Position numbers and translations under genes: made by a program. A model generated the notes under the pieces. It had not been told where the DNA came from and did not search any database. It saw only the letters and a list, made by a program, of their open reading frames with translations. DNA of 64,000 bases from the human T2T-CHM13v2.0 reference genome, Homo sapiens: the NCBI RefSeq assembly GCF_009914755.1, contig NC_060947.1; one strand, given 5' to 3'. Positions within the stretch are counted from its first letter, which is position 1, and every line of letters begins with the position of its first letter. Shown piece after piece: positions 48,529-59,482 of this stretch.

Positions 48529-51500
48529 TTTTTTTTATTATTATTATACTTTAAGTTTTAGGGTACATGTGCACAATGTGCAGGTTAGTTACATATGTAT
48601 ACATGTGACATGCTGGTGTGCTGCACTCATTAACTCATCATCTAGCATTAGGCATTTCTCCTAATGCTATCCCGGCCCCCTCACCCCACCCCAGAACAGT
48701 CGCCAGAGCATGGAGTTCCCCTTCCTGTGTCCATGTGTTCTCATTGTTCAATTCCCACCTATGAGTGAGAATATGCGGTGTTTGGTTTTTTGTTCTTGCG
48801 ATAGTTTACTGAGAATGATGATTTCCACTTTTATCCATGTCCCTACAAAGGACATGAACTCATCATTTTTTATGGCTGCATAGTATTCCACGGTGTATAT
48901 GTGCCACATTTTCTTAATCCAGTCTATCATTGTTGGACATTTGGGTTGGTTCCAAGTCTTTGCTATTGTGAATAGTGCCGCAATAAACATACGTGTGCAT
49001 GTGTCTTTATAGCAGCATGATTTATAGTCCTTTGCGTATATACCCAGTAATGGGATGGCTGGGTCAAATGGTATTTCTAGTTCTAGATCCCTGTGGAATC
49101 GCAACACTGACTTCCACAATGGTTGAACTAGTTTCCAGTCCCACAAACAGTGGAAAAGTGTTCCTATTTCTCCACATCCTCTCCAGCACCTGTTGTTTCC
49201 TGACTTCTTAATGATTGCCATTCTAACTGGTGTGAGATGATATCTCACTGTGGTTTTGATTTACATTTCTCTGATGGCCAGTGATGATGAGCATTTTTTC
49301 ATGTGTTTTTTGGCTGCATAAATGTCTTCTTTTGAGAAGTGTCTGTTCATGCCCTTTGCCCACTTTTTCATGGGGTTGTTTGTTTTTTTCTTGTAAATTT
49401 GTTGAAGTTCATTGTAGATTCTGGATATTAGCCCTTTGTCAGATGAGTAAGTTGCAAAAATTTTCTCCCATTTTGTAGGTTGCCTGTTCACTCTGATGGT
49501 AGTTTCTTTTGATGTGCAGAAGCTCTTGAGTTGAATTAGATCCCATTTGTCAATTTTGGCTTTTGTTGCCATTGCTTTTGGTGTTTTAGACATGAAGTCC
49601 TTGCCTGTGCCTATGTCCTGAATGGCAATGCCTAGGTTTTCTTCTAGGATTTTTATTGTTATAGGTCTAACGTTTAAGTCTTTAATCCATCTTGAATTGA
49701 TTTTTGTATAAGGTGTAAGGAAGGGATCCAGTTTCAGCTTTCTACATATGGCTAGCCAGTTTTCCCAGCACCATTTATTAAACAGGGAATCCTTTCCCCA
49801 TTGCTTGTTTTTCTCAGGTTTGTCAAAGATCAGATTGTTGTAGACAGTCAGCGCTATTTCTGAGGGCTCTGTTCTGTTCCATTGATCTATATCTCTGTTT
49901 TGGTACCAGTACCATGCTGTTTTGGTTTCTGTAGCCTTGTAGTATAGTTTGAAGTCAGGTTGCATGATGCCTCCAGCTTTATTCTTTTGGCTTAGGATTG
50001 ACTTGGTGATGCAGGCTCTTTTTTGGTTCCATATGAATTTTAAAGTAGTTTTTTCCAATTCTGTGAAGAAATTCATTGGTAGCTTGATGGGGATGGCATT
50101 GAATCTATAAATTACCTTGGGCAGTATGGTCAGTTTCATGATATTGATTCTTCCTACACATGAGCATGGAATGTTCTTCCATTTGTTTGTATCCTCTTTT
50201 ATTTCATTGAGCAGTGGTTTGTAGTTCTCCTTGAAGAGATCCTTCACATCCCTTGTAAGGTGGATTCCTAGGCATTTTATTCTCTTTGAAGCAATTGTGA
50301 ATGGGAGTTCACTCATGATTTGGCTCTCTGTTTGTCTGTTATTGGACTATAAGAATGCTTGTGATTTTTGTACTTGATTTTGTATCCTGAGACTTTGCTG
50401 AAGTTGCTTATCAGCTTAAGGAGATTTTGGGCTGAGTCAATGGGGTTTTCTAGATATACAATCATGTTGTCTGCAAACAGGGTCAATTTGACATCTTCTT
50501 TTCCTAATTGAATACCCTTTATTTCCTTCTCCTGTCTAATTGTCCTGGCCAGAACTTCCAACACTATGTTGAATAGGAGTGGTGAGAGAGGGCATCCCTG
50601 TCTTGTGCCAGTTTTCAGAGGGAATGCTTCCAGGTTTTGCCCATTCAGTATGATATTGGCTGTGGGTTTGTCATAGATAGCTCTTATTATTTTGAGATAC
50701 GTCCCATCAATACCTAATTTGTTGAGAGTTTTTAGCAAGAAGGGTTGTTAAATTTTGTCAACGGCCTTTTCTGCATCTATGGAGATAATCATGTGGTTTT
50801 TGTCTTTGGTTCTGTTTATATAGTGGATTACATTTATTGATTTGCATATATATTGAACCAGCCTTGCATCCCAGGGACGAAGCCCACTTGATCATGGTGG
50901 ATTAGCTTTTTGATGTGCTGCTGCATTCGGTTTGCCAGTATTTCATTGAGGATTTTTGTATCAATGTTCATCAAGGATATTGATCTAAAATTCTCTGTTT
51001 TGGTTGTGTCTCTGCCCGGCTTTGGTATCAGGATGATGCTGGTCTCATAAAATGAGTTAGGGAGGATTCCCTCTTTTTCTATTGATTGGAATAGTTTCAG
51101 AAGGAATGGTACCAGTTCCTCCTTGTACCTCTGGTAGAATTTGGCTGTGAATCCATCTGGTCCTGGACTCTTTTTTGTTGGTAAGCTATTGATTATTGCC
51201 AAATTTCAGCTCCTGTTATTGGTCTATTCAGAGATTCAACTTTTTCCTGGTTTAGTCTTGGGAGATTGTATGTGTCGAGGAATTTATCCATTTCTTCTAG
51301 ATTTTCTAGTTTATTTGCATAGAGGTGTTTGTAGTATTCTCTGATGGTAGTTTGTATTTCTGTGGGATTGGTGGTGATATCCCCTTTATCATTTTTTATT
51401 GCGTCTATTTGATTCTTCTCTCTTTTTTTCTTTATTAGTCTTGCTAACAGTCTATCAATTTTGTTGGTCCTTTTAAAAAACCAGCTCCTGGATTCATTAA

Positions 51501-54026
51501 TATTTTGAAGGGCTTTTTGTGTCTCTATTTCCTTCAGTTCTGCTCTGATTTTAGTTATTTCTTGCCTTCTGCTAGCTTCTGAATGTGTTTGCTCTTGCTT
51601 TTCTAGTTTTTTTAATTGTGATGATAAGGTGTCAATTTTGGATCTTTCCTGCTTTCTCTTGTGGGCATTTAGTGCCATAAATTTCCCTCTACACACTGAT
51701 TTGAATGTGTCCCACAGATTCTAGTATGTTGTGTCTCTGTTCTTGTTGGTTTCAAAGAACATCTTTATTTCTGCCTTCATTTCGTTATGTACCCAGTAGT
51801 CATTCAGGAGCAGGTTGTTCAGTTTCCATGTAGTTGAGCAGTTTTGAGTGAGTTTCTTAATCCTGAGTCGTAGTTTGATTGCACTGTGGTCTGAGAGAGA
51901 GTTTTTTATACTTCTGTTCTTTTACATTTGCTGAGGAGAGCTTTACTTCCAACCATGTGGTCAATTTTGGAATAGGTGTGGTGTGGTGCTGAAAAGAATG
52001 TATATTCCGTTGATTTGGGGTGGAGAGTTCTGTATATGTCTATTAGGTCCGCTTGGTGCAGAGCTGAGTTCAATTCCTGGGTATCCTTGTTGACTTTCTG
52101 TCTCATTGATATGTCTAATGTTGACAGTGGGGTGTTAAATTCTCCCATTATTAATGTGTGGGAGTCTAAGTCTCTTTGTAGGTCACTCAGGACTTGCTTT
52201 ATGAATCTGGGTGCTCCTGTATTGGGTGCATATATATTTAGGATAGTTAGCTCTTCTTGTTGAATTGATCCCTTTACCATTATGTAATGGCCTTCTTTGT
52301 CTCTTTTGATCTTTGTTGGTTTAAAGTCTGTTTTATCAGAGACTAGGATTGCAACCCCTGCCTTTTTTTGTTTTCCATTTGCTTGGTAGATCTTCCTCCA
52401 TCCTTTTATTTTGAGCCTATGTGTGTCTCTGTATGTGAGATGGGTTTCCTGACTACAACACACTGATGGGTCTTGACTGTTTATCCTATTTGCCAGTCTG
52501 TGTCTTTTAATTGGAACATTTAGTCCATTTACATTTAAAGTTAGTATTTTTATGTGTGAATTTGAACCTGTCATTATGATGTTAGCTGGTTATTTTCCTC
52601 GTTAGTTGATGCAGTTTCTTCCTAGTCTCTATGGTCTTTACATTTTGGCATGATTTTGCAGCGGCTGGTACCTACCGGTTGTTCCTTTCCATGTTTAGTG
52701 TCTCCTTCAGGAGCTCTTTTAGGGCAGGCCTGGTGGTGAGAAAATCTCTCAGCATTTGCTTTTCTGTAAAGTATTTTATTTCTCCTTCACTTCTGAAGCT
52801 TAGTTTGGCTGGATATGAAATTCTGGGTTGAAAATTCTTTTCTTTAAGAATGTTGAATATTGGCCCCCACTCTTCTGGCTTCCAGAGTTTCTGCCGAGAG
52901 ATCCGCTGTTAGTCTGATGGGCTTCCCTTTGTGGGTAACCCGACCTTTCTCTCTGGCTGCCCTTAACATTTTTTCCTTCATTTCAACTTTGGTGAATCTG
53001 AAAATTATGTGTCTTGGAGGTGCTCTTCTCGAGGAGTGTCTTTGTGACGTTCTCTGTATTTCCTGAATCTGAATGTTGTCTTGCCTTGCTAGATTGCGGA
53101 AGTTCTCCTGGATAATATCCTGCAGAGTGTTTTCCAACTTGGTTCCATTCTCCCCGTCGCTTTCCGATACACCAATCAGACATAGATTTGGTCTTTTCAC
53201 ATAGTCCCATATTTCTTGAAGGCTTTGTTCATTTCTTTTTATTCTTTTTTCTCTAAACTTCCCTTCTCATTTCATTTCATTCATTTCATCTTCCATCGCT
53301 GATACCCTTTCTTCCAGTTGATCGCATCAGCTCCTGAGGCTTCTGCATTCTTCACGTAGTTCTCGAGCCTTGGCTTTCAGGTCCATGAGCTCCTTTAAGC
53401 ACTTCTCTGTATTGGTTATTCTAGTTATACATTCGTCTAAATTTTTTTCAAAGTTTTTAACTTCTTTGTCTTTGGTTTGAATTTCCTCCTGTAGCTCGTA
53501 GTTTGATCGTCTGAAGCCTTCTTCTCTCAACTCGTCAAAGTCATTCTCTGTCCAGCTTTGTTCCATTGCTGGTGAGGAACTGCGATCCTTTGGAGGAGGA
53601 GAGGTGCTCTGCTTTTTAGAGTTTCCAGTTTTTCTGCTCTGTCTTTTCCCCATCTTTGTGGTTTTATCTACTTTTGGTCTTTGATGATGGTGATGTACAG
53701 ATGGGGTTTTGGTGTGGATGTCCTTTCTGTTTGTTAGTTTTCCTTCTAACAGACAGGATCCTCAGCTGCAGGTCTGTTGGAGTTTGCTAGAGGTCCACTC
53801 CAGACGCTGTTTGCCTGGGTATCAGCAGTGGTGTCTGCAGAACAGTGATTTTTCGTGAACCACGAATGCTGCTATTAGATCGTTCCTCTGGAATTTTTTT
53901 CTCAGAGGAGTACCTGGCCGTGTGAGGTGTTAGTCTGCCCCTATTGGGGGTGCCTCCCATTTAGGCTGCTCATGGTTCAGGGGTCAGGGACCCAGTTGAG
54001 GAGGCAGTCTGCCCATTCTCAGATCT
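48529..54026 (-). mobile_element. L1PA2/3-like element lacking the outer 5'UTR (left palindrome arm)
   Basis: ORF1 start at 53653, ORF2 start at 52574, 3'UTR and tail at 48529; only ~373 nt upstream of ORF1. Confidence 0.95.
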
Positions 54027-59264: not shown

Positions 59265-59482
59265 ACAATGAGAGCACATGGACACAGGAAGGGGAACATC
59301 ACACACCAGGGACTGTTGTCGGGTAGGGGGATGGGGGAGGGACAGCACTGTAAGTTATACCTAATGCTAGATGACGAGTTAGTGGGTGCAGTGCACCAGC
59401 ATGTCACATGTATACATATGTAACTAACCTGCACATTGTGCACATGTACCCTAAAACTTAAAGTATAATAATAGAAAAAAAA

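What the first reader, a model, noticed from the sequence alone, without database searches (positions are those of the whole stretch)
48529..59482. ~11 kb near-perfect head-to-head LINE-1 palindrome with a 39-bp spacer
Seen: two ~5.45 kb L1 arms mirror each other about 54008. From the centre out to ~49450/58565 (~4.5 kb per arm) I found only one mismatch by eye (51341 C vs 56675 A). Both arms share the same inactivating lesions: ORF1 TGA at 54687, a 4-bp insertion near 55340, ORF2 frameshifts, and FADD to FADN. Established: long inverted repeats with tiny spacers form hairpins or cruciforms, are fragile and depleted from genomes, and ordinary L1 twin-priming does not duplicate the same sequence. 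Inference: a long-dead L1 was copied or homogenised at the DNA level long after insertion, and the structure has persisted. This is a small, transposon-only analogue of sex-chromosome palindromes maintained by arm-to-arm conversion.
Basis: partly seen in the sequence, partly recalled or inferred. Interest (0 to 1): 0.9.

Follow-up and report, generated by a model that had tools for sequence, protein, structure and literature searches.

The report
Near-perfect LINE-1 palindrome on human X
Two dead LINE-1 copies sit head to head on the human X chromosome as an 11-kb mirror image with only 39 bases between them, most likely because one dead copy was re-copied backwards during DNA repair or replication and then joined to a second, unrelated LINE-1 tail.

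Summary
Left arm 48523-53988 and right arm 54028-59488 are mirror images around a 39-nt spacer. From the centre outwards, 4538 bp per arm carry one mismatch (51341/56675). Genome-wide, the next-best LINE-1 copies among those scored are about 95% identical.

The outer ~0.9 kb is a mosaic, not uniformly "93%". Two diverged patches (22 differences in 204 bp, 35 in 184 bp) alternate with near-identical blocks (1 in 440, 0 in 79). Inside the patches each arm has its own private mutations. The arms also carry different alleles of a 4-nt indel, and each allele occurs in thousands of genomic L1 copies. So the two 3' ends come from two different L1 insertions.

The spacer is L1 5'UTR contiguous with the left arm. 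Neither L1 has a target-site duplication at the centre, and the flanks are not mirrored.

Best reading (0.55): a DNA-level fold-back or template switch copied the long-dead left L1 in reverse. The copy was then captured by homeologous pairing in a second, inverted L1 3' end, with patchy repair. The last homogenisation was recent, roughly 0.2 Myr ago (up to about 1.2-1.5 Myr), unless arm-to-arm conversion is ongoing, which is not shown. Published X-palindrome catalogues exclude such elements by design. This is a new member of a known kind, of moderate interest.

The parts
48529..54027 (-). L1-A: dead LINE-1 in minus orientation (T8 tail at 48529-48536, 5' end inside the 5'UTR at 54027). This is the left arm plus the spacer, and the inferred template of the inverted copy.
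   Evidence: Alignment with three other L1s in the window shows L1 homology running through the spacer to about 54026.
53989..54027 (-). 39-nt spacer: L1 5'UTR sequence contiguous with the left arm, the presumed fold-back loop.
   Evidence: The hairpin of 53939-54077 folds at -71.4 kcal/mol, z = -16.75.
54027..54028 (.). Central rearrangement junction. It carries no TSD of either L1. Microhomology is 0 bp as read, or 2 bp (54026-27 with 53989-90) if 54027 once carried the C seen in 3 of 3 other L1s.
   Evidence: The junction 29-mer is unique in the genome.
54028..58565 (+). Right arm, inner part: inverted copy of 49451-53988, with 1 mismatch in 4538 bp (56675 A is derived, 51341 keeps the family state).
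   Evidence: L1 ORF1/EN/RT domains. Lesions at 54687, 55340, 56814, 57170, 57642 and FADN.
58566..58769 (+). Patch 1 (mirror 49243-49450): 22 differing columns in 204 bp. The right arm has the short allele of a 4-nt indel, the left arm the long allele.
   Evidence: Genome counts are 2111 short vs 7963 long.
58770..59209 (+). Block B (mirror 48803-49242): homogenised, 1 difference in 440 bp (58939), with 10 arm-specific derived states shared by both arms.
   Evidence: P(<=1 difference) = 1.8e-11 under a uniform rate.
59210..59393 (+). Patch 2 (mirror 48619-48802), in the 3'UTR: 35 differences in 184 bp, of which 18 are right-derived, 13 left-derived and 4 mixed. No arm-specific derived state is shared.
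59394..59488 (+). Block C and tail of the right L1 (A8 at 59475-59482): 0 differences over 59394-59472, and the tails differ at 59474-59475.
   Evidence: The tail/flank 33-mer is unique in the genome.
47719..48528 (-). Left flank: fragment of an older L1 (about 80% to the arms), equivalent to right-arm positions 57399-58223. It is not mirrored on the right.
59484..59815 (+). Right flank: 3' fragment of an older L1 (72-81% to other L1s), equivalent to right-arm positions about 59099-59446. It is not mirrored on the left.

Best explanation
A real, single-copy, L1-only palindrome made at the DNA level. The left L1 (A, minus strand, 48529-54027) had been dead for tens of millions of years. A break or stalled fork in its 5'UTR then let a 3' end fold back, or switch to the complementary strand, 39 nt behind its tip. 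Synthesis from there produced an inverted copy of A (now 54028-58565). That nascent copy paired with a second, independent, oppositely oriented L1 3' end (B) lying to the right. The homeologous heteroduplex, or repeated template switches, was repaired in patches, which left the mosaic at 58566-59488. Whatever lay between A's 5'UTR and B was lost. Shown: the anatomy, the shared lesions, the mosaic, the different lineage alleles and the lack of TSDs. Inferred: the order of events, the 2-bp microhomology, the deletion, and that A rather than B was the template. The near-identity reflects a last homogenisation about 0.2 Myr ago (95% range 6 kyr-1.2 Myr at 0.5e-9 per site per year), or later arm-to-arm conversion. 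No function is implied: no gene is annotated, and the L1 promoter region is missing from both arms.
For: (1) The arms meet symmetrically, with a 39-nt spacer that is L1 5'UTR contiguous with one arm. This is the spacer signature of fold-back inverted duplications (PMC3907307, passages read: a spacer in 21 of 21 junctions, and 2-8 bp microhomology in 13).
(2) There is no TSD of either L1 at 54027|54028, and the flanks are unrelated older L1 fragments. The centre is therefore a rearrangement junction, not an insertion junction.
(3) All lesions and about 115 arm-specific substitutions in 3275 columns are shared, against 1 unshared in 4538 bp. The copying was late.
(4) Identity switches between 58504 and 58566, inside continuous L1 homology.
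(5) The outer mosaic is non-random (P = 1.8e-11 for block B).
(6) Within the patches the arms share 1 arm-specific state where 9.6 are expected (P = 7e-4). They differ at a 4-nt indel whose two alleles occur 2111 and 7963 times in the genome. This points to two different source lineages.
(7) The left-arm patches sit as close to the nearest in-window relative as the inner arm does (6.2% vs 4.8-5.5%), while the right-arm patches are further away (10.1%). This agrees with the spacer in naming A as the template.
(8) Homology-mediated secondary capture of fold-backs is known in yeast (PMC7467729, abstract). Small-hairpin inverted duplications with 2-bp microhomology are reported at L1-induced breaks (10.1101/2024.12.14.628481, passages read).
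Against: As the sequence stands there is no microhomology at the central junction. The 2 bp require that 54027 was once C. No ancestral or alternative allele was available, so the deletion, the prior existence of B as a separate element and the age are all unverified. The two tails look alike (A8 followed by xGAAAA on both sides), which would also fit a copy running through the whole of A. L1 endonuclease target preference can explain this, but that is recalled, not tested. Homeologous pairing at 10-19% divergence is normally suppressed by mismatch repair (recalled). A 4-nt slip in an AAAC repeat could in principle recur independently.
Confidence: 0.55

Rival explanations
1. Two long, independently inserted head-to-head L1s (each 5.5 kb or more) were homogenised over 4.5 kb by one long-tract or repeated inverted-repeat gene conversion. 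A later central deletion brought their 5' ends together. Arm-to-arm conversion is ongoing, as in sex-chromosome palindromes.
For: The outer ends come from different lineages and form a fine-scale mosaic, including an isolated shared state at 58749 and an isolated difference at 58939. This looks like several conversion tracts. Arm divergence of 2 in 5057 bp (0.04%) is in the range reported for X palindromes (up to 99.99% identity; PMC8327919, passages read).
Against: It needs a coincidence: both L1s must end within 39 nt of the same L1 position and abut with no TSD and no intervening DNA. There is no AT>GC excess on the arm lineage: 40 W>S to 50 S>W, against ratios of 0.68-0.85 in three single-copy L1s. 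This test has low power. Conversion between repeats that started 6-10% apart is disfavoured (recalled).
Confidence: 0.15
2. The palindrome arose in one retrotransposition event. The first-strand cDNA snapped back on itself (39-nt loop) and was copied back to its poly(A) end, giving two full arms with outward tails. The arms were then kept alike by conversion, and two patches of the right arm were later overwritten by ectopic conversion from other L1s.
For: The outer limits of the mirror coincide with the two L1 tails, which look alike (A8 then xGAAAA). There is no TSD at the centre. Self-annealing of 3' overhangs at L1-induced breaks is reported (10.1101/2024.12.14.628481, passages read).
Against: In the patches the arms share 1 arm-specific state against 9.6 expected, and they carry different lineage alleles of the 4-nt indel. 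Arm-to-arm divergence in the patches exceeds the left arm's divergence from an independent relative (P = 0.011 and 6e-4). The model needs two ectopic patches to fall in the same 0.9 kb of one arm. It also needs tens of Myr of conversion, for which there is no signal.
Confidence: 0.07
3. The structure is not in the human germline: it is an assembly artefact (fold-back or chimeric read, mis-join between L1s) or a rearrangement that arose in the CHM13 cell line.
For: Only one assembly was examined and no reads were available. Palindromes with tiny spacers are a known artefact shape of single-molecule libraries (recalled).
Against: The arms differ at 56675 and reconnect to a different, unique right flank through a mosaic L1. 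A fold-back read would not produce that. The outer mosaic shows old, independent mutations in both arms.
Confidence: 0.08

Closest known systems
Fold-back (hairpin-primed) inverted duplications with a single-copy spacer (Hermetz et al. 2014, PMC3907307; yeast foldback inversions, Li, Putnam and Kolodner 2020, PMC7467729)
   Same: An inverted copy abuts the original across a short spacer that is contiguous with one copy. Microhomology at the junction is little or none. The structure is stabilised by a second, homology-mediated junction in a dispersed repeat.
   Different: The scale is kilobases, not megabases. The 39-nt spacer lies far below the 766 bp-70 kb reported in patients. The structure is interstitial and apparently fixed in a normal genome rather than next to a terminal deletion. 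Every part is LINE-1.
Primate X and Y chromosome palindromes kept alike by arm-to-arm gene conversion (Jackson et al. 2021, PMC8327919; Makova et al. 2024, PMC11168930)
   Same: It lies on the X, has arm identity of 99.98% in the inner part and a small spacer (the X palindromes go down to 77 bp).
   Different: The arms are 5.5 kb, not 8-140 kb. It has no genes and is 100% repeat, so both catalogues exclude it by their stated criteria. No conversion signal was found and conservation is unknown.
Inverted-repeat-mediated DUP-TRP/INV-DUP and ODIRA-type inverted triplications (listing of PMC4352052, PMC11293582, 10.1101/2023.09.19.558550; model details recalled)
   Same: One junction lies inside a pre-existing inverted repeat pair (here two L1 3' ends) and the other has little or no homology.
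   Different: Those structures carry three copies with the middle one inverted. Here the genome holds exactly two copies.
L1 twin-priming 5' inversions (recalled: Ostertag and Kazazian 2001)
   Same: L1 sequence in both orientations at one locus.
   Different: Twin priming joins different, adjoining parts of one RNA under one tail and one TSD. Here the same 5.4 kb is present twice, with two tails and no TSD.

Membership tests
Fold-back inverted duplication | Single-copy spacer between the direct and inverted copies, contiguous with one of them | tested here: met
   The 39-nt spacer 53989-54027 continues the left arm's L1 5'UTR.
Fold-back inverted duplication | Short inverted microhomology (2-8 bp) where the spacer meets the inverted copy | tested here: inconclusive
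   0 bp as read (54027 A vs 53989 G). It becomes 2 bp if 54027 was the C seen in 3 of 3 other L1s.
Fold-back inverted duplication | Loss of the sequence beyond the fold-back point | not testable with these tools
   This needs an ancestral allele. Only the missing 5' TSDs and the missing L1 5' part hint at it.
Fold-back inverted duplication | Outer end fixed by a secondary, homology-mediated junction in a repeat | tested here: met
   The identity switch at 58504-58566 lies inside L1 homology. A mosaic lies beyond it, and the two sides carry different lineage alleles.
Primate X-chromosome palindromes (catalogue definition) | Arms of at least 8 kb | tested here: not met
   Arms are 5461/5466 bp, and the near-identical part is 4538 bp.
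Primate X-chromosome palindromes (catalogue definition) | Arm identity of 98-99% or more | tested here: met
   98.88% overall and 99.98% in the inner part.
Primate X-chromosome palindromes (catalogue definition) | Less than 80% repeat content; not a LINE or SINE | tested here: not met
   Both arms are L1 from end to end.
Primate X-chromosome palindromes (catalogue definition) | Arm-to-arm gene conversion (GC enrichment, concerted changes) and conservation across species | tested here: inconclusive
   W>S to S>W is 40:50 on the arm lineage, against 64:94, 45:53 and 11:15 in single-copy L1s. Other species were not available.
DUP-TRP/INV-DUP and ODIRA inverted triplication | Three copies, with the middle one inverted | tested here: not met
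   There are two genomic hits at 100%, and the next is 95%.
L1 twin-priming inversion | Inverted and direct segments are adjoining, non-overlapping parts of one L1, with one poly(A) tail and one TSD pair | tested here: not met
   The same sequence is in both arms, there are two tails and no TSD.

The most novel reading that the evidence does not exclude
The palindrome is old (shared with other apes) and gene-free, yet has been kept 99.98% alike by arm-to-arm conversion despite a 39-bp spacer. That would show that a kilobase-scale perfect palindrome can persist in the primate germline without selection on genes, contrary to the view that X palindromes survive only because selection preserves their gene families.
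Probability: 0.12. Interest if true: 0.75.

Novelty: new member of a known kind. Interest (0 to 1): 0.42.

Why it matters
Long perfect palindromes with tiny spacers are expected to be unstable. The standard X/Y palindrome screens deliberately skip anything under 8 kb or made of repeats, so structures like this one are invisible in current catalogues. Both junctions of this locus can be read at base resolution: a fold-back junction and a homeologous L1 capture with patchy repair. It is therefore a natural, datable example of the fold-back pathway operating in a normal genome rather than in patients or tumours. If it is polymorphic in humans, it would allow direct measurement of how stable a 4.5-kb perfect palindrome is in the human germline. 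It also shows that L1 pairs can seed new palindromes.

Tried and rejected
- GC-biased conversion test: the arm lineage shows no AT>GC excess. It gives no support for long-term conversion, but its power is low.
- Donor search for the right-arm outer part: the best other genomic copy is 94%, and 95% for the left, with 40 scored of 12,167 and 9,257 candidates. No recent donor was seen. Patch-only searches were not run.
- The truncated L1 at 60101-60940 starts at the equivalent of 58635, close to the identity switch. It carries the family states, not the right-arm-specific ones, so I treat this as coincidence.
- TSD search by eye at both tails and at the centre found none.
- The mirrored 'xGAAAA' after both A8 tails was considered as copy-through into the flank. 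On both sides these bases belong to the older flanking L1 (comparison with L1 sequence partly recalled), so it is not used as evidence.
- The idea that the two flanking older L1 pieces are one twin-primed element was not resolved. The right flank is more complex, with a T14 run and a further L1 piece.
- Seven literature searches returned no paper on this locus or on kilobase-scale L1-only palindromes. Supplementary palindrome tables of PMC8327919 and PMC11168930 were not opened.
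Full report

Yes. The repeat finder gives arms 49380-53988 and 54028-58636 (4609 nt) with 39 nt between them, continued outward by 48515-49388 / 58624-59497 at 93%. A mirror comparison base by base finds five mismatches in the 4609 nt. Four of them lie at 49383-49450. 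Gapped BLAST aligns 54028-59488 with 53988-48523 at 98.88% over 5468 columns.

The element is LINE-1. Pfam finds the ORF1 RBD-like and trimerisation domains, the endonuclease domain and two pieces of RVT_1 in separate reading frames.
- a stop at 54687-54689;
- FADN in the RT;
- arm-specific indels against two relatives at 55340, 56814, 57170 and 57642.

The window's own genome turned out to be searchable. A 2-kb inner piece hits both arms at 100% and all other scored L1 copies at 95% or less (40 scored of 16,617 candidates). Arm identity is thus far above that of same-family copies. Both junction words are unique in the 3.1-Gb assembly, so there is no paralogue of the locus.

**2. The outer 0.9 kb is a mosaic.**

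A gapped arm-to-arm alignment shows four alternating blocks:

| Interval (right arm) | Differing columns | Length |
|---|---|---|
| 58566-58769 (patch 1) | 22 | 204 bp |
| 58770-59209 (block B) | 1 | 440 bp |
| 59210-59393 (patch 2) | 35 | 184 bp |
| 59394-59472 (block C) | 0 | 79 bp |

Under a uniform rate, one difference or fewer in block B has P = 1.8e-11.

I polarised the differences with 18 close genomic relatives: the nine nearest loci returned for each outer end, 94-95% identical.
- Patch 1: 12 columns (9 events) are derived in the right arm, 6 in the left, and 4 are mixed.
- Patch 2: 18 are right-derived, 13 left-derived and 4 mixed.

Arm-specific derived states shared by both arms number 5 in 166 bp of the adjacent inner part and 10 in 440 bp of block B. 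In the two patches together there is only 1 in 388 bp, where 9.6 are expected (P = 7e-4). In the patches, then, the two arms have evolved apart for essentially their whole lives.

The arms also differ at a 4-nt indel at 58630. The right arm's short form occurs 2111 times in the genome as an exact 26-mer, and the left arm's long form 7963 times as an exact 30-mer. Both are therefore inherited L1 lineage variants. Arm-to-arm divergence in the patches also exceeds the left arm's divergence from an independent relative (P = 0.011 and 6e-4).

The simplest reading is that the two 3' ends belong to two different L1 insertions: A on the left and B on the right.

**3. The centre.**

Alignment with three other L1s in the window shows that the 39-nt spacer is L1 5'UTR in minus orientation, contiguous with the left arm. 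L1 homology ends at about 54026, where the right arm begins. The three other L1s have C where the window has A at 54027. With C there, 54026-27 would pair with 53989-90, giving a 2-bp fold-back microhomology. As read, there is none.

Neither L1 has a target-site duplication at the centre. The outer flanks are unrelated older L1 fragments: 47719-48528 in minus orientation and 59484-59815 in plus orientation. The centre is a rearrangement junction, not an insertion junction. The central 139 nt fold as a DNA hairpin at -71.4 kcal/mol (z = -16.75).

**4. Timing.**

On the arm lineage, 115 substitutions in 3275 usable columns are shared by both arms, as are all the frame-breaking lesions. One difference in 4538 bp is unshared: 56675 A is derived, and the left arm keeps the state of two relatives. 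The last homogenisation therefore falls in roughly the last 0.3% (upper bound 1.7%) of the element's history. With a recalled rate of 0.5e-9 per site per year this is about 220 kyr (95% range 6 kyr-1.2 Myr). Counting 58939 as well gives about 400 kyr (up to about 1.4 Myr). These figures assume no later conversion.

**5. Mechanism.**

The best account is a fold-back or template-switch inverted duplication of the long-dead L1-A. It began 39 nt behind the tip of a broken or stalled 3' end in A's 5'UTR. It finished when the nascent inverted copy paired with a second, oppositely oriented L1 3' end (B). Patchy mismatch repair or repeated template switches then produced the mosaic, and the DNA between A's 5'UTR and B was lost.

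Two lines of evidence name A as the template:
- the spacer is contiguous with the left arm;
- the left-arm patches are about as close to the nearest in-window relative as the inner arm is (6.2% vs 4.8-5.5%), whereas the right-arm patches are further away (10.1%).

The pathway is documented in three papers:
- Human inverted duplications have a spacer in 21 of 21 sequenced junctions and 2-8 bp of inverted microhomology in 13 (PMC3907307, passages read).
- Yeast foldback inversions arise from ssDNA hairpins and are stabilised by homology-mediated secondary rearrangements, including single-strand annealing (PMC7467729, abstract read).
- Small-hairpin inverted duplications with 2-bp microhomology occur at L1-induced breaks (10.1101/2024.12.14.628481, passages read).

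**6. Rivals.**

(a) Two long head-to-head L1s were homogenised by gene conversion, followed by a central deletion. This explains the mosaic. It needs both elements to end within 39 nt of the same L1 position and to abut without TSDs. The arm lineage also shows no AT>GC excess: 40:50, against 64:94, 45:53 and 11:15 in single-copy L1s. That test has low power.

(b) A single retrotransposition event with a snap-back cDNA. This explains why the mirror ends at both tails. It is contradicted by the lineage alleles and by the lack of shared derived states in the patches. It would also need two ectopic conversion patches in the same 0.9 kb.

(c) An assembly or cell-line artefact. This is unlikely given the inter-arm differences, the old independent mutations in both outer ends and the reconnection to a unique right flank. 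It is untested, because no reads were available.

**7. Comparison with what is known.**

The two published X-palindrome screens exclude this structure by design. [quoted passage not shown] Makova et al. required at least 8 kb and less than 80% repeat content (PMC11168930, passages read). Spacers as small as 77 bp are reported for large X palindromes (PMC8327919), so a 39-bp spacer is small but not without precedent.

DUP-TRP/INV-DUP and ODIRA products carry three copies, whereas here there are two. Twin priming is excluded because both arms hold the same sequence, there are two tails and there is no TSD.

Seven literature searches returned no description of this locus. Supplementary palindrome tables were not opened.

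**8. Verdict.**

The single-L1 picture and the claim of maintenance by conversion are not. This is a new member of a known kind, a fold-back inverted duplication captured in a repeat. Its interest is moderate: it is a base-resolved, datable, gene-free palindrome that current catalogues cannot see. Its age and stability could be settled quickly by comparing other human and ape assemblies.

Noticed in passing
window 40526-41361, 47564-47680, 60033-60100, 60939-61467: Four pieces of one much older minus-strand L1 (about 76-81% to the arms) read in order along the L1 (arm positions 2385>1537, 1509>1395, 1248>1182, 1193>666). This old element is the floor into which the 41386-47539 L1, the block holding the palindrome, and the 60101-60940 L1 were all inserted. 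The ~12-base overlap (1182-1193) around 60101-60940 looks like that insert's target-site duplication.
   Followed up: partly
window 60101-60940: A 5'-truncated plus-strand L1 (88-90% to the arms) begins at the equivalent of 58635, within 70 bp of the point where arm identity breaks down. It does not carry the right-arm-specific variants, so this is probably a coincidence of common truncation lengths.
   Followed up: partly
window 59817-59830 and 59851-59923: A run of about 14 T directly after the older L1 3' fragment is followed by a plus-strand piece of older L1 ORF2 (71-76% to other copies). The order of the pieces does not fit a simple nested insertion and was left unexplained.
   Followed up: no
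genome-wide (G000), L1 ORF2 3' region equivalent to window 58615-58650: A 4-nt AAAC indel splits L1 copies into a short form (2111 exact 26-mers) and a long form (7963 exact 30-mers). It is a handy lineage marker for this part of primate L1.
   Followed up: partly
G000 C23:71530194-71530344 (-) and C23:71553585-71553735 (+): Two L1 fragments on the X, 23 kb apart and in opposite orientation, gave identical scores to the same 151-base query. They may be the arms of another inverted repeat. Not examined.
   Followed up: no
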